64,000 bases of DNA, taken from the IMG/VR virus record IMGVR_UViG_3300045125_000165, one strand, 5' to 3'. The stretch is from a virus. The position numbers and the translations under genes are program-made. Positions 14,482-56,818 of this stretch are shown here, one piece after another; position 1 is the first letter of the stretch; each line of letters begins with the position of its first letter. The notes beneath the pieces were generated by a model. It worked only from the letters and a program-made list of their open reading frames with translations, was not told the origin of the DNA and did no database searches.

Positions 14482-16813
14482 GTGCAACAAACCAAACTAG
14501 AACTAAGAGAATATCAAAAAGCCGCCATCCGAGAAATATACTCGCGATGGAAAGAAGGGCATAAGCGGGTAATGTTTCAACTACCAACAGGCGGCGGTAA
14601 GACATTTTTATTTAGCGCGATCGCCAAAGACTTATTGCAAGAACGAATCCTAGTATTAGTCCACAGAGAAGAATTAATCTATCAAGCCCAAGAATCGCTT
14701 GAGACGGCTTGCGGTGTGAGAGTAGGCATAATTAAAGCTGGGGTAGCTCCTGAGCCTCTATGCATGATTCAAGTTGCATCGGTGCAGACACTGGTTAGGC
14801 GATCGCTTCCTCCTGCGGGTTTGGTGATTGTAGATGAATGTTTCCCTGCGGGTACTTTGGTTGATGGGAAACCAATCGAGTCTTATCAAGTTGGCGACTA
14901 TGTGACCTCCTTTGATGAGAACACAGGGGCGATCGCAAAGAAGCGTGTAACCAGACTTTTTAAAAATCCACTAAAAGAACTTGTGAAAGTAGTTTTGTCG
15001 AATGGCGATGAAATTATTTGCACGCCTTCACATCCAATCTTTACTCCTGACGGGTGGAAACCTGCGATGGAGTTAGATCGCTTCGACATGATGTTGTTAA
15101 CTAATCAGGAGAAATCAAATGAAAACCAAAACAGCAACGTGCAAATTTTGCGAGAAAGAATTTGTTCAAGCGATCTACATCGGCAAAAATGGGAGGCAAC
15201 AAATAAGCAACAGGAAGACTTGCAGTACAGAATGCAATCGAGCGATCGCTTCATTAACTGCCGCCAATACGAATCGCAAGTACGCTTCGGAGCGAATGAC
15301 AGTAAACAACCCTATGCAAAAAGCCGAGTCTCGAAACAAGATGAAAGCGTCTCTAAAAGAGATGGGACACAAGCCACCGTCTCAAGGGGGCAATGGCAAG
15401 GGCTTGACAGTTCCGCAGTCGAATCTACTCCATGCTTTAGGGGATGGATGGATCGCGGAATACATTGTCAAGACAAGAGAGACAAATATTCATGGACTGG
15501 AAAAGCTACCCAATCATTACAAAATAGACATTGCAAATCCATCACTGATGATTGCAATAGAAGTAGATGGAGCCAGTCACCAGACACTAGAAAGGCAAGC
15601 TCAGGACAGGAAAAAAGAAACCTTTTTGACTGGATCGGGGTGGAAAGTGTTGAGGTTTACCAACCAAGAAGTACTGAACAATCTGGGTATGTGCCTCCAG
15701 AAAGTTATGTCTATAACCTAGAAGTCGAAGATTGGCACACCTATTTAGTTGATGGCGATCGCGGATCTTATGTAGTTCACAATTGCCATCATGCGACAGC
15801 CGATTCTTATCGCAAGATACTAGACGGCTACCCCGAAGCTTATGTCTTGGGCGTAACCGCTACTCCATGTAGAACGGATGGATCGGGCTTTGATGATTTA
15901 TTTGATGCCTTAGTAAGTGTAATTGGGGTCAAAGACCTCATCGCTCAAGGCAGTCTATGTAAGTACAAACTGTTTGCAGATCCAAACCCAATCAAAACCA
16001 AGGGAATTAAAACGACTGCGGGTGACTACAACCAAAAGGAACTTGCCCAAAGCGTCAATACCAGTATTCTGTCTGCGAACTTAGTCCAGACCTATCGCGA
16101 TCGCTGCCCTGATAAGCGCTGTGTCGTATTCGCGATCAATGTTGAGCATAGTATGGCGATCGCAGAACGCTACAAACAAGCAGGGATACCAGCAGAACAT
16201 TTGGATGGGGAAACACCATCAGGCGATCGCGAAGGCAATATTAGAAAGATTTAGAACTGGCGAAACATTGGTTATAAGCAATGTCGGAATCCTGACCGAA
16301 GGATTTAATCTGCCAAGTATTGAAGCGGTGCAATGCGCCCGACCAACAAAATCATTGAGCCTATGGTTACAGATGGTCGGGCGTGGCTTACGTCCATCGG
16401 CAGGGAAGGAATATGCCTTAATTCTTGATCACACTGAGAACTGGATGAAGCTTGGTATGCCCTGTGCTAAGCATATTTGGACTTTAGAGGGTGTTGAACC
16501 TGAAGAGAAAAAGCCTAGATTCCGCAAAACCAAAGATAACGAGGTTGTTGAGGATGGTTTCTTTGAGATCGAGGAGGGTGATGCCGAACTGGAAGAAATT
16601 GGAGAAGATGATGTCAAGGCGATCGCTATCCAATTAGAAATAGAACAGTTCAATAAGCTGCTGGAAATTGCTGAGCATCGGCAATATAAAAAGGCGTGGG
16701 CAGTCTATAAATTTCTTGAGATTGAACCAAGCTATGAGGCGTTGCTGGTCTGTGCTGGCATCATGGGGTATAAACCTCAGTGGGCTGCCATGAAGTATAA
16801 GGAATATGCTTAG
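14482..16813 (+). CDS. superfamily II DNA helicase (DExH), intein-containing (one frameshift near 16240)
   Basis: Walker A LPTGGGKT; DE|CHH rejoined after splicing; TAT; EGFNLP; QMVGRGLR. Confidence 0.93.
14839..15783 (+). mobile_element. intein (315 aa) in the helicase DExH motif
   Basis: Starts CFPAGT, block B CTPSHP, block F VYNLEVEDWHTYLV, ends VVHN before Cys+1. Confidence 0.95.
15119..15721 (+). CDS. DUF559/Vsr-like endonuclease nested in the +1 frame of the intein
   Basis: AGGAG RBS, CKFC/CSTEC zinc motif, YKIDIA..IAIEVDGASH..DRKKETFL..GWKVLRFTN. Confidence 0.9.
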   Translation: MKTKTATCKFCEKEFVQAIYIGKNGRQQISNRKTCSTECNRAIASLTAANTNRKYASERMTVNNPMQKAESRNKMKASLKEMGHKPPSQGGNGKGLTVPQSNLLHALGDGWIAEYIVKTRETNIHGLEKLPNHYKIDIANPSLMIAIEVDGASHQTLERQAQDRKKETFLTGSGWKVLRFTNQEVLNNLGMCLQKVMSIT

Positions 16814-54253: not shown

Positions 54254-56818
54254 TCAGATAATGCTAGGTAGCGCACGTTGCGAGTGATGAGCAATCTGCT
54301 TAGGGACAAATATTTGGTAAACCATATAACCAAAGGCATCGGATAGATGCGATCGCGAGACTATCCGTTTTGTCGATACCTTGATCTTTATCCCAAGACA
54401 ACTGCTCCAAATCTTTAGTAAGTTCAGGCACAACATCCATCGCAAGGAAGCAACGATTATTTTTGAATATCAAATTGACTGCATGAGTCCGATGGCGCAC
54501 AGGGGGTTAGCATCGGGGATATGCTTATGGATTGACATACCCAAAGGCTTCAACTCTTCAAAGATGATTTGCCATGCAGACATCTTCGAGACAGCGCTCT
54601 TGGCCCTGCCTGACGCATCACCGTACAGATGGATATCCATATTGTTAGGCTTACCAGCTTTGATAAAATCACGAATATCGACAATCAACTCCCATAAATC
54701 AGCATCAAGCATGAAAAATTCCTTGAATACATGAAGTTCGTTCGCTCTCTTTTGAGCCAATACTGCAACACATGGGGCGGCGTTGAAGTCGAATGCGATG
54801 TGTAATGGGAGATTAGGATCGTAGGCGATCGCCTCTGCATCAATGCCAACAAGCGTGTGATTATTGCGACTAAAGTATTTGTAAATCTTGCCACTTGCCG
54901 CATCAATAAACGCCCCTTCAAGTTCCTGTTGCGCCATTTCATCGGTATAATTTGCCTTTAGACCCGCAACATAGGACTCATCTAAGTGAGTGTTTTCTAA
55001 ACTTAGGAAGTTCAGCATCCAATAGAAGTTTTTAATCTCTTCTGTTCTCGCGGGATCGCCAAATCGGTAATACAGCCAATTAAAGCCATTGGGTGAAGTC
55101 GTGATAATCCCTTGGCATTTTTGACCGTTTGAGCTTCGCATACGACCATCCACAACTTGAAACGCTGATTCTGGTGCATACGCCGCTTCATCTGCCCATA
55201 TCCTTTGAAATTCTGCACCCCGACCTGTTTGCGATTTTCCCAAATATGCAGACATACTGGAAACATGCCAGAGCATTCGGTTTTCGCCTAGATAGAAATA
55301 TCTGTTTTGCGAATTTGCGATCTTTACCGCAGTTAATTCGACAGAGCCATGCCACGGATCGACGGGAATGTTGTATTCAACACAGGCTTTAAATAATCCG
55401 ACTAATGTTGATTTCCATAATTGTTGAAACGAGTTGGAAACTATTAAGCCTTGACAAACATCTGCATACCAAAAAGATTGTAATATCGTCCAGATTGCGC
55501 CACTGTGGGTTTTGCCGCTATTATGATGCCAAATTCCATTAGCTAAATAATGGTTTCCTTTTGGTACATGAAGGTCATAAAAATCATCGTATCTAACATA
55601 TTCGATCGCCTCAATTACATCCCAATATGAGTTAGAATTAGAGTAATTACCACTGTTTACGGATGACCAAATAGATGAGTTTAGATTTACGTTTTTCGAG
55701 GGAAGAGTGGATTCAGATGATGAGTGATCATTCGAGTATTCGCTCAATAGCAAGGTCTTTAGGAGTTCAACATGGGAGTGTATCTCGCGTACTTGAAAAG
55801 CTTGGTCTTCACGTTGCGAAAGCAAACATTGCAGCGAGAAAAGTAGATTACAAAGCGATCGCTGAACATTACTTGAAAACAAAGAACCTTGGTCAAACAG
55901 GGCAGTTTTTTGGGGTAGATGATAGAACCGTTTCAAAGGCTTGCAAAGAAGTTGGGATAACCCCAAAAGATTTTGTTCTTGAGAGCAAAAATCAATTTGG
56001 TTTGCCAATGAACGAGATAATTCAGCGCTACAAAGATGGAGAAACTTGTATAGAGCTTGGTAAAGCTTTTGGTGTTGACGATGAGGTGATTCGCCGTAGG
56101 TTGGTGAGGAGAGGTGTCGAGATGCGAAGTGTCGGCTGCCGCACCCCTGAGCTAAACTCGCAATGGGCTGGCGGCAAAGGGTATCCTGATGAGCATAAAA
56201 AAGTGAGAAAGATTGTTGAATCCATTCTTGGGAGAAAACTGAAATCGGTCGAGGTAATACATCACCACAATGAGAATCCCCTTGACCACGACTTAGACAA
56301 TCTTTGGATATTCCCTTCCCCTTCGCATCACGCTCGTTATCATGGCAAGCTACGAGCGATCCGCAACCAAGGTGTCGAAGTTGATGCCAGCCAGTGGGCG
56401 AAAGCATTTGATGCTGTTCCGTTACGATCACTGATTTCCCGATCGCAAAGTCACACGATAAAGATTTGCTTGCCCTTTGACATACGCAGGAGTAGCCCAA
56501 GTTTCGCCTATCAATGTCTGTACTTTGATAGGCGATCGCGGTAAGGTCTTTTACTGGAATCCCGTTGATTTCAGTCTCACCCGCCAAACATCCAATTCCC
56601 CCAATTGCACTCAACCATCGTGGGGGCGGCATTTCGGGCTTTTCTTCTTGCAGTGGAAACCAAGTAAAGAATTGGGTTTGCCCCCTACCAGTTGGCTTAA
56701 ATCCTTTTTCTGGATCAAATAAGCAATGCTCAAGATTCTCAAGTTTTTGCGCTTGCAAGAGATCTTGCGCGCGATCGCCTCGTATTCGAGTAAAGCCCCC
56801 ATTTGACCATAAACGCAA
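54254..56818 (-). CDS. terminase large subunit, intein-containing (start uncertain; 3' frameshifts)
   Basis: Walker A GGIG|SGKT, Walker B WADEA, ITTSP, EN..L..Y, ELEGAF, DFN, YGDASG, DAFGY. Confidence 0.93.
55520..56590 (-). mobile_element. intein (~357 aa) in TerL Walker A
   Basis: Starts CLAGET, block B VTEQH, block F FYDLHVPKGNHYLANG, ends WHHN before Ser+1. Confidence 0.95.
55717..56544 (+). CDS. HNH endonuclease with HTH repeats, nested antisense inside the TerL intein
   Basis: Several HTH-like segments, NSQWAGG, EHKKV..ILGRKL..EVIHHHNENPLDHDLDNL..H..YH. Confidence 0.88.
   Translation: MMSDHSSIRSIARSLGVQHGSVSRVLEKLGLHVAKANIAARKVDYKAIAEHYLKTKNLGQTGQFFGVDDRTVSKACKEVGITPKDFVLESKNQFGLPMNEIIQRYKDGETCIELGKAFGVDDEVIRRRLVRRGVEMRSVGCRTPELNSQWAGGKGYPDEHKKVRKIVESILGRKLKSVEVIHHHNENPLDHDLDNLWIFPSPSHHARYHGKLRAIRNQGVEVDASQWAKAFDAVPLRSLISRSQSHTIKICLPFDIRRSSPSFAYQCLYFDRRSR

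What the first reader, a model, noticed from the sequence alone, without database searches (positions are those of the whole stretch)
14839..15783. Helicase intein with a DUF559 endonuclease nested in the +1 frame
Seen: the 315-aa intein (CFPAG...VVHN|C) interrupts the DE|CH motif. Inside it an ORF with its own AGGAG RBS (15119-15721, +1 frame) encodes a zinc-finger plus DUF559/Vsr-like nuclease, while the intein frame stays stop-free over all 603 nt. With the TerL case, both inteins here use out-of-frame nucleases of different families and orientations. Inference: repeated capture of free-standing nucleases by mini-inteins.
Basis: partly seen in the sequence, partly recalled or inferred. Interest (0 to 1): 0.8.

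Follow-up and report, generated by a model that had tools for sequence, protein, structure and literature searches.

The report
Helicase intein with hidden +1-frame nuclease gene
A phage helicase gene carries a self-splicing protein insert (intein) whose mobility nuclease is a separate gene read one base out of step inside the same DNA; this layout recurs in many phages, including cultured ones where the nuclease is not annotated, and it is a new variant of a recently described class of odd inteins.

Summary
Observation confirmed. A 315-aa class-1 intein (14839-15783) splits helicase motif II as DE|CH. A 200-aa ORF (15119-15721, +1 frame, AGGAG 7 nt before its ATG) encodes a zinc ribbon plus a DUF559/Vsr-like nuclease. 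It is not an assembly artefact. Every intein-borne out-of-frame relative examined (about 30 loci, including Vibrio phage CP-T1, Pseudomonas phage MR14 and Corynebacterium phage phi673) sits in the same +1 phase, and the host frame stays open. Each of 21 distinct loci has 0 host-frame stops against 4.6-19.6 expected from synonymous shuffles. Four free-standing relatives carry 15-28 stops in that frame. Nested genes use NNT:NNC at 0:442 before AA/AG/GA. Three metagenome assemblies of ~92% relatives show no indel in the intein. Only the nuclease frame shows purifying selection. The host-frame read-through is a ~170-aa low-confidence linker between two well-predicted HINT halves. One family member is fused in frame, in a UvrD intein. 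The "repeated capture" idea is only partly supported: intein and nuclease are co-inherited as one old unit that also sits in SNF2 and clamp-loader genes. Out-of-frame and antisense intein nucleases were described in 2025 (bioRxiv 10.1101/2025.01.02.630785), but not this type. This scan earlier found an antisense nuclease in this window's TerL intein (e1-5356598). The window's helicase has a private 1-nt insertion at 16231.

The parts
14482..14838 (+). N-extein: SF2/ResIII helicase, motifs I to the DE of motif II
   Evidence: Pfam ResIII 90.2 bits, residues 5-120, profile positions 1-134
14839..15783 (+). Class-1 intein, 315 aa: Cys1, block B T62-x-x-H65, terminal His-Asn, followed by +1 Cys at 15784
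   Evidence: Alignment A2 has invariant C1, T6, H65, H314, N315 and nearly invariant T62. Extein junction reads DE|CH
14839..15108 (+). N-terminal HINT splicing half (intein residues 1-90)
   Evidence: AlphaFold2 pLDDT 89-96, beta-rich
15107..15111 (+). Shine-Dalgarno-like AGGAG, 7 nt before the nuclease ATG; TAA closes the nuclease frame at 15098-15100
   Evidence: No promoter-like site upstream inside the intein. No significant RNA structure around the start (z 0.32)
15119..15721 (+). Nested +1-frame gene, 200 aa: zinc ribbon, helical putative DNA-binding region, C-terminal DUF559/Vsr-like nuclease. It keeps all 16 family-invariant residues, including K135, D137, E148, D150, H154, D163, K166
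   Evidence: Pfam DUF559 E 4.8e-12. 197 relatives at E<=1e-10. Invariant columns. Model pLDDT 89.2. Best structural matches 3HRL and 3R3P
15109..15624 (+). 'Shadow' linker: intein-frame read-through of the nuclease gene (intein residues 91-262), hydrophilic and predicted disordered
   Evidence: Block-mean pLDDT 36-58, with residues 93-257 almost all below 50. Rich in R/S/G/E and poor in F/M/Y/W. Substitution pattern shows no constraint in this frame beyond stop avoidance
15625..15783 (+). C-terminal HINT splicing half (intein residues 263-315)
   Evidence: Beta strands 263-274, 290-296, 301-305 and 310-314. Block-mean pLDDT 90, 74, 65, 94, 92, 92. Conserved VYNLEVE...VHN block
15625..15721 (+). 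About 32 codons where folded parts of both proteins share the DNA (nuclease residues ~170-200 and intein residues 263-294)
   Evidence: A crude per-position conservation test for double constraint was inconclusive
15784..16813 (+). C-extein: helicase motif II CH onward and the Helicase_C domain, broken by a 1-nt insertion at 16231 inside a GCGATCGC (HIP1) site. Frame 1 stops at 16254 and the rest reads in the frame of ORF 16121-16813
   Evidence: Three ~92% relatives in metagenome runs of three studies all lack one base at 16231

Best explanation
This is a composite mobile element. A class-1 intein sits between the E and the C of the helicase Walker B / motif II box DECH. The place where inteins normally carry an in-frame homing endonuclease domain is instead filled by an independent gene in the +1 frame. 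That gene encodes a zinc-ribbon plus DUF559/Vsr-like nuclease. Ribosomes translating the helicase read straight through the nuclease gene in frame 0. This makes a ~170-residue unstructured linker between the two halves of the HINT fold, which then associate, excise the intein and ligate DE to CH. The nuclease is made separately by internal initiation at its own AGGAG-ATG on the helicase message. It most likely cuts intein-less helicase alleles near the DECH codons, so that repair copies intein plus nuclease (homing). The intein insertion destroys the target and so protects the carrier. The host frame is kept open purely by synonymous choices in the nuclease gene: NNC instead of NNT before AA/AG/GA. 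This costs the nuclease no amino acid. Shown: anatomy, conservation, selection for the open frame, folds, co-inheritance. Inferred: translation of the nuclease, splicing activity, the cleavage target and homing.
For: Anatomy in the window. Recurrence. In 24 of 26 loci found through the nuclease, it lies in the same relative frame inside a large ORF that stays open. The same holds in L034 and L036 and in four cultured phages, where the frame offset is 1 from the annotated helicase CDS. In all 40 phage records with the nuclease, only a helicase or hypothetical CDS is annotated over it. Host genes are ResIII helicases, SNF2 helicases (L003, L026) and a clamp-loader-like AAA ATPase (L023), each with split Intein_splicing or HINT hits. 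Junctions read DE|CH in 22 of 23. Selection. There are 0 host-frame stops in each of 21 distinct loci against 4.6-19.6 expected, with P<=0.004 each, and the third frame has 6-28 stops. The natural control is four free-standing relatives, which have 15-28 stops in that frame. NNT:NNC before AA/AG/GA is 0:442 in nested genes against 80:38 in free-standing ones. Which frame is selected. Pairwise identity at nuclease codon positions 1/2/3 is 0.55/0.58/0.37 in nested genes, the same as in free-standing ones. Folds. The nuclease model has pLDDT 89.2. Its top matches are 3HRL (DUF559) and 3R3P (I-Bth0305I), both with probability 1.0; profile E-values are 1.3e-8 and 3.9e-3. In the intein model the two halves are confident and the linker block means are 36-58. 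Independent initiation. A stop in the nuclease frame lies 0-30 nt before the chosen start in 19 of 27 nested loci. Not an assembly error. Contigs of three runs from three studies span 14794-16813 at ~92% identity with no indel inside the intein. Co-inheritance. The intein tree and the nuclease tree share the clades L010/11/13/17/21 and L027/28/30. A known homing function for this fold rests on I-Bth0305I (PMC3239194) and the Vsr-like genes of fractured genes (PMC2677866).
Against: There is no peptide, ribosome-profiling or splicing data for any member. SD-like motifs before the nested start are not universal, and my choice of start codon in other loci is provisional. The window's own helicase is frameshifted at 16231. 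If that base is real, this particular copy may sit in a broken host gene. The cleavage target is inferred only from the insertion site. The nuclease is nearer to generic DUF559 than to the one characterised homing enzyme. The test for double constraint in the 32-codon overlap was inconclusive.
Confidence: 0.75

Rival explanations
1. Sequencing or assembly artefact. The nuclease is really an in-frame endonuclease domain of a canonical intein, put out of frame by two compensating indels.
For: The window record does carry one apparent 1-nt insertion nearby, at 16231. In-frame versions of this nuclease exist in UvrD inteins (L024/L025).
Against: About 30 independent loci and cultured phage genomes show the same phase. 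Three independent assemblies at ~92% identity have no indel in 14839-15783. The nuclease frame is closed by TAA 18 nt before its own ATG and has its own SD and stop. NNT is completely avoided at risky sites, 0:442, which errors cannot produce.
Confidence: 0.01
2. Decaying relic in this phage. The architecture is real in the family, but the window's copy is non-functional because the helicase is a pseudogene, so the intein and nuclease are drifting.
For: A 1-nt insertion at 16231 separates the Helicase_C domain from the rest. Three relatives lack it.
Against: Intein catalytic residues and all 16 family-invariant nuclease residues are intact, and the host frame over the nuclease is still stop-free. 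The insertion lies in a GCGATCGC site and may be a record error. A phage with a broken replicative helicase would be expected to lose out quickly.
Confidence: 0.12
3. The nuclease is made as a fusion with the intein N-half by programmed +1 ribosomal frameshifting, or the locus works as a split intein with trans-splicing, rather than by independent initiation and cis-splicing.
For: The closest described arrangement, fractured genes, uses split inteins around Vsr-like genes, and the endonuclease end overlaps the downstream intein part by 6-69 bp (PMC2677866).
Against: No stop interrupts the host frame in any of the nested loci, so there is no N-fragment end. A stop in the nuclease frame lies just upstream of the nested start in most loci, which blocks a frameshift fusion. 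No fractured version was seen among the 37 loci examined.
Confidence: 0.03
4. The nested nuclease is not a homing enzyme. It serves the phage in another way, for example by degrading competitor or host DNA, and merely uses the intein as a safe harbour.
For: DUF559 proteins are common stand-alone bacterial genes of unknown role, such as L031 in a Rufibacter mobile region. Relatives sit as free genes upstream of intein-less helicases, a layout also typical of marker-exclusion nucleases.
Against: There is strict co-inheritance with one intein family at one site type. The same composite occurs in three different P-loop host genes that share DE|CH. This is what site-specific homing predicts.
Confidence: 0.08

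Closest known systems
Non-canonical actinobacteriophage inteins (Gosselin, Arsenault and Gogarten, bioRxiv 10.1101/2025.01.02.630785), and the earlier antisense LAGLIDADG inteins of Synechocystis DnaX and the Chloroflexus SpoVR-like protein cited there
   Same: A contiguous intein whose homing nuclease is a separate ORF in another reading frame or strand. The in-frame read-through has no recognisable fold. The proposed origin is invasion of an intein by a free-standing endonuclease gene. The nucleases are missed by annotation.
   Different: That work reports antisense LAGLIDADG, antisense VSR-like and a frame-3 endonuclease VII-like nuclease, in DNA polymerase, minor capsid, terminase and thymidylate synthase. 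It reports no same-strand +1 DUF559/Vsr-like nuclease and no helicase, SNF2 or clamp-loader host. It states that VSR-like nucleases were otherwise known only with split inteins. The family here is found mostly outside actinophages: cyanophage, Vibrio, Pseudomonas and many uncultured viral contigs.
Fractured genes (Dassa et al. 2009, PMC2677866)
   Same: A Vsr-like free-standing endonuclease gene lies at the endonuclease position of an intein in phage DNA-metabolism genes, on the same strand. The nuclease 3' end overlaps the start of the C-terminal intein part.
   Different: There the host frame ends and restarts, giving a split intein, trans-splicing and three ORFs. Here the host frame runs on and is selected to stay open, giving one precursor and cis-splicing. 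That paper's model has no out-of-frame contiguous state.
I-Bth0305I / EDxHD homing endonucleases (Taylor et al. 2011, PMC3239194; PDB 3R3P)
   Same: A Vsr-like catalytic fold at the C-terminus with an N-terminal DNA-binding region. The fold match has probability 1.0 and target-normalised TM 0.67.
   Different: The sequence profile is nearer to DUF559 3HRL (E 1.3e-8) than to 3R3P (E 3.9e-3). The N-terminus is a zinc ribbon plus helices, not NUMOD2 helix-turn-helix repeats. I-Bth0305I lies in a group I intron.
Hidden out-of-frame HNH in a phage methylase (ShiLan element; Arsenault et al. 2025, PMC11855218)
   Same: An endonuclease gene is nested out of frame in a host ORF that stays stop-free.
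   Different: That element has no splicing domain; the read-through stays in the host protein as a loop. Here HINT halves flank the nested gene and should remove it.

Membership tests
Class-1 intein (HINT fold) | N-terminal Cys/Ser nucleophile directly after the extein | tested here: met
   Cys at 14839 after ...VDE. Invariant C1 in 17 relatives
Class-1 intein (HINT fold) | Block B T-x-x-H | tested here: met
   T62 nearly invariant and H65 invariant in alignment A2
Class-1 intein (HINT fold) | C-terminal His-Asn followed by a Cys/Ser/Thr +1 extein residue | tested here: met
   ...VVHN|C at 15778-15786. H314 and N315 are invariant
Class-1 intein (HINT fold) | Profile match and HINT fold of the two halves | tested here: met
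   Pfam Intein_splicing 47.2 bits against a 35.8 cut-off. Both halves are predicted as beta-rich with block-mean pLDDT mostly 89-96 (65-74 in two blocks of the C half). The model was not itself compared with solved inteins
Class-1 intein (HINT fold) | Protein splicing activity | not testable with these tools
   Needs expression of the precursor and detection of ligated exteins
DUF559 (PF04480) / Vsr-like nuclease superfamily | Profile match above the curated cut-off | tested here: met
   46.2 bits against 20.6, E 4.8e-12. 195 of the 197 relatives also carry PF04480
DUF559 (PF04480) / Vsr-like nuclease superfamily | Conserved acidic/His active-site residues on the restriction-endonuclease-like core | tested here: met
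   K135, D137, E148, D150, H154, D163 and K166 are invariant in 41 sequences. Fold match to 3HRL has target-normalised TM 0.71; 3R3P and 1VSR are also listed
EDxHD homing endonuclease family (I-Bth0305I) | Composite E-D-x-H-D catalytic motif and close sequence kinship | tested here: inconclusive
   Profile hit to 3R3P is only E 3.9e-3. In that alignment I-Bth0305I has N opposite D150 and no His opposite H154. Residue correspondence was not resolved
EDxHD homing endonuclease family (I-Bth0305I) | N-terminal NUMOD2 helix-turn-helix repeats | tested here: not met
   No NUMOD family in Pfam at E<=0.1. The N-terminus is a four-Cys ribbon
Homing endonuclease (functional class) | Site-specific cleavage of the element-free allele and biased inheritance | not testable with these tools
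   Inferred from position in the intein, co-inheritance and constant DE|CH junctions
Fractured gene (split intein plus free-standing endonuclease) | Host ORF ends before and restarts after the endonuclease gene | tested here: not met
   The host frame is uninterrupted in the window and in all nested relatives
Intein with out-of-frame or antisense endonuclease (non-canonical intein) | Contiguous splicing domain plus a conserved nuclease ORF in another frame within the endonuclease slot | tested here: met

The most novel reading that the evidence does not exclude
The out-of-frame nesting is a stable, selected end-state rather than a passing stage. On this reading a single composite (Walker-B-site intein plus +1-frame DUF559 nuclease) has spread by homing among unrelated P-loop NTPase genes (ResIII and SNF2 helicases, clamp loader) that share the DE|CH codons. 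The +1 phase is favoured by the genetic code itself: every risky NNT codon has an NNC synonym, whereas the other same-strand phase would leave a median of 2 unavoidable stops. With its free-standing relatives next to intein-less helicases and its in-frame relatives in UvrD, the family would give a living series for how inteins acquire endonucleases. It could be tested in cultured phages.
Probability: 0.45. Interest if true: 0.65.

Novelty: new variant of a known kind. Interest (0 to 1): 0.55.

Why it matters
How inteins and their homing endonucleases came together is an old question. The leading idea is that splicing came first and a free-standing endonuclease gene invaded later. This family shows three states of one nuclease lineage: free-standing beside an intein-less target gene, nested out of frame in a contiguous intein, and fused in frame. 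The free-standing copies provide a built-in control, since they have 15-28 stops in the frame that nested copies keep at zero. The family occurs in cultured, tractable phages (Vibrio cholerae phage CP-T1, Pseudomonas phage MR14, Corynebacterium phage phi673). Translation of both frames, splicing with a ~170-residue junk linker, and homing could therefore all be tested directly. In practice, every one of the 40 phage records found annotates only the helicase or a hypothetical protein. A nuclease gene is thus systematically missed, and these inteins would be misread as having a decayed or unknown middle domain.

Tried and rejected
1. The whole genome of the window is not held, so no own-genome search was possible.
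2. The promoter scan found no sigma-70-like site upstream of the nested start inside the intein. The RNA fold around the SD/ATG is no better than shuffles (z 0.32). There is thus no sign of the regulatory hairpins described for fractured genes.
3. Foldseek E-values for the whole nuclease model were weak (0.017), because only the C-terminal ~100 residues match. I relied on probability, target-normalised TM and the sequence profile instead.
4. The nuclease tree has an unresolved backbone, with 14 of 29 inner branches open. It cannot count captures or escapes. The apparent interleaving of free-standing and nested copies is not forced by starred branches. No AU test was run.
5. The test for double constraint in the 32-codon overlap was inconclusive. 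Third-position identity is 0.39 in nested and 0.41 in free copies, with only four free sequences.
6. SD-like motifs before the provisional nested starts are present in many relatives but not all.
7. A metatranscriptome run (X3) holds 100%-identical contigs over extein parts only (14595-14796, 15800-15975). An RNA library can hold DNA, so this shows neither transcription nor its absence. All holders carried small shares of the sampled words (<=0.19), so no habitat claim is made.
8. Two named bacterial proteins (P0015 Ktedonobacter, P0119 Paracoccus) could not be placed in context because they were not on record.
9. No look-alike of the nuclease exists in earlier notes of this scan.
10. Literature searches for DUF559 or Vsr-like nucleases nested in helicase inteins found nothing beyond the papers cited. 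The library lacks most subscription journals.
Full report
OBSERVATION

The window holds one long ORF, 14482-16254 (+), with ResIII/DEAD helicase motifs. After ...VIVDE it continues as CFPAGT... (14839) and returns to helicase sequence after ...YVVHN with CHHAT... (15784). The 315 residues between give a split Intein_splicing hit (47.2 bits, cut-off 35.8) and a PT-HINT hit. Inside, ORF 15119-15721 lies one base downstream of the intein frame. AGGAG sits at 15107-15111 and a TAA in the ORF's own frame at 15098-15100. The ORF encodes 200 aa with a DUF559 hit (46.2 bits, cut-off 20.6). The intein frame has no stop over the nested ORF and the third frame has 19. Synonymous shuffles expect 10.6 intein-frame stops, and none of 5000 shuffles was stop-free.

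IS IT REAL OR AN ARTEFACT?

I searched for the nuclease in genome and viral contig collections and got 26 loci at 32-57% identity.

- In 24 of them the nuclease lies in the same relative phase inside a large ORF that stays open across it. In the other two (L024/L025) it is in frame with the large ORF.
- The large ORFs are ResIII helicases with the intein after profile position 134, two SNF2 helicases, one clamp-loader-like AAA ATPase, and a UvrD helicase for the in-frame pair.
- A tblastn of the phage collection found 40 records, including Vibrio phages CP-T1, 24 and Rostov M3, the Nahant Vibrio phages, Pseudomonas phage MR14 and Corynebacterium phage phi673. In every one the only annotated feature over the match is the helicase or a hypothetical protein. 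In the four I opened, the match is offset by one base from the annotated CDS.
- Two metagenome loci where a gene caller had called the nuclease separately (L034, L036) also turned out to have an uninterrupted host frame.
- Contigs from three runs of three different studies cover 14794-16813 at about 92% identity with no insertion or deletion inside the intein.

SELECTION ON THE TWO FRAMES

Each of 21 distinct nested genes has zero host-frame stops where synonymous shuffles expect 4.6-19.6 (P<=0.004 each). The third frame has 6-28 stops.

Four free-standing relatives serve as a natural control. They carry 15-28 stops in the corresponding frame. In nested genes, codons ending in T never precede AA, AG or GA (0 T against 442 C), while elsewhere T and C are used 1023:860. 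Free-standing genes use T freely at such sites (80:38).

Pairwise identity at nuclease codon positions 1/2/3 is 0.55/0.58/0.37 in nested genes and 0.56/0.59/0.37 in free ones. The nuclease frame is therefore under ordinary purifying selection. The host-frame reading of the same DNA is constrained only to lack stops. Apparent motifs in the linker, such as S-L-Q-N/D-R, are the shadow of the nuclease motif HYKIDIAN.

In the observed phase every dangerous codon has a synonym, so openness costs the nuclease nothing. In the other same-strand phase a median of 2 stops (Met followed by an A-initial codon) could not be avoided. This phase preference is not absolute, because a frame-3 case is published.

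THE TWO PROTEINS

The nuclease, modelled with 41 sequences, is confident (mean pLDDT 89.2). It has an N-terminal beta ribbon with four conserved Cys, a helical middle, and a C-terminal alpha/beta core. Its best solved matches are the DUF559 protein 3HRL and the catalytic domain of the homing endonuclease I-Bth0305I (3R3P), both with probability 1.0 and target-normalised TM 0.71 and 0.67. Vsr is also listed. The sequence profile gives E 1.3e-8 and 3.9e-3 respectively. The window's copy keeps all 16 invariant residues.

In the intein model, residues 1-90 are confident (block means 89-96). From residue 263 the C half is confident in most blocks (block means 90, 74, 65, 94, 92, 92). Residues 91-260 have block-mean pLDDT 36-58. 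The linker is rich in R, S, G and E and poor in aromatic residues. About 32 codons (15625-15721) encode folded parts of both proteins. A crude test for double constraint there was inconclusive.

EXPRESSION

No promoter-like site lies upstream within the intein, and there is no significant RNA structure at the start. A stop in the nuclease frame lies 0-30 nt before the chosen start in 19 of 27 nested loci. Independent internal initiation on the helicase message is therefore the most likely route. This is inferred, not shown.

EVOLUTIONARY SETTING

Extein junctions read DE|CH in 22 of 23 loci, including the clamp loader and one SNF2 gene. L003 is shifted by two residues, to DEGH|CY.

Relatives of the nuclease also occur in other settings:
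- as free genes directly upstream of intein-less ResIII helicases whose motif II reads DESHH or DEVHH (L033, L035, L037);
- as a free gene in a bacterial mobile region (L031);
- fused in frame in a UvrD intein.

The nuclease tree and a tree of the intein splicing halves share their two well-supported clades, and both place the window nearest L004. Intein and nuclease thus travel as a unit. The backbone of the nuclease tree is unresolved, so the number of captures or escapes cannot be counted.

COMPARISON WITH WHAT IS KNOWN

- Dassa et al. 2009 described Vsr-like free-standing endonuclease genes between the halves of split inteins ('fractured genes'). Their model has no contiguous out-of-frame state.
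- Taylor et al. 2011 showed homing-type cleavage by a Vsr-fold enzyme, I-Bth0305I.
- Gosselin, Arsenault and Gogarten (bioRxiv 2025) reported actinophage inteins with antisense LAGLIDADG, antisense VSR-like and frame-3 endonuclease VII-like nucleases in polymerase, capsid, terminase and thymidylate synthase genes. They noted that such inteins are probably overlooked.
- Arsenault et al. 2025 reported an out-of-frame HNH nuclease in a methylase without any splicing domain.

The present case belongs to that recently described kind. It differs in four ways: the nuclease type and phase (same strand, +1, DUF559-like with a zinc ribbon), the host genes (Walker-B site of helicases and a clamp loader), the breadth of distribution outside actinophages, and the free-standing controls that make the selection measurable. 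Earlier work in this scan reached a parallel verdict for the antisense HNH gene in this window's TerL intein (e1-5356598). I re-checked only its Pfam content.

THE WINDOW'S OWN COPY

Homologous helicases align in frame 1 up to about 16251 and from about 16232 in the next frame. The sequence reads ...GDRE then one extra base inside a GCGATCGC site. All three ~92% relatives lack one base at 16231. This is either a record error or a private frameshift. It does not affect the intein or nuclease region, but it leaves open whether this copy's host gene works.

VERDICT

The 'repeated capture' interpretation is partly supported. The feature is a new variant of a known kind, of moderate interest, mainly because it is widespread, unannotated and experimentally tractable.

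Noticed in passing
window 16231 (within 16224-16232, GCGATCGC-G): A one-base insertion relative to three ~92% relatives from three metagenome studies splits the helicase into 14482-16254 and 16121-16813. It lies in a HIP1 palindrome. It is either a record error or a private frameshift.
   Followed up: partly
L006:1218-4730: This helicase appears to carry two inteins: an upstream one with an in-frame HNH_3 hit (residues 331-358), and the DE|C-site intein with the nested +1 nuclease.
   Followed up: no
L033:3501-5430, L035:3501-5560, L037:3501-5855: Free-standing relatives of the nuclease sit immediately upstream of, or overlap by a few bases, intein-less ResIII helicase genes whose motif II is DESHH or DEVHH rather than DECHH. 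These look like free-standing homing genes beside their target gene. L037 has a second DUF559 gene at 1-540.
   Followed up: partly
L024:1891-4401 and L025: A UvrD-type helicase carries an intein with the same nuclease lineage fused in frame (DUF559 at residues 454-520 inside the Intein_splicing span 263-563), inserted at DE|CQD.
   Followed up: partly
L023:2025-4121: A clamp-loader-like AAA ATPase (DNA_pol3_delta2 hit) carries the same intein subfamily and a nested +1 nuclease at ILDE|CH. This suggests a jump between P-loop genes through the shared Walker B codons.
   Followed up: partly
L016:2133-5378: The helicase carrying the nested-nuclease intein is fused to an N6/N4 DNA methylase domain (residues 797-1055).
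   Followed up: no
NC_019457.1 6842-9823 (L027), MT104474.1 32056-34629 (L028), NC_042354.1 31833-34343 (L029), MG592563.1 43311-46013 (L030): Cultured phage genomes annotate a single long helicase or 'coil containing protein' CDS. Neither the intein nor the nested nuclease gene is annotated.
   Followed up: yes
window 54470-56818 (-) and 55675-56544 (+): TerL has an Intein_splicing hit. The antisense 289-aa ORF has helix-turn-helix hits and a weak HNH_3 hit (E 0.002). This agrees with the earlier scan finding.
   Followed up: partly
window 14595-14796 and 15800-15975: A 2025 aquatic metatranscriptome run holds 100%-identical short contigs over the extein parts of the helicase. This cannot distinguish RNA from carried-over DNA.
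   Followed up: no
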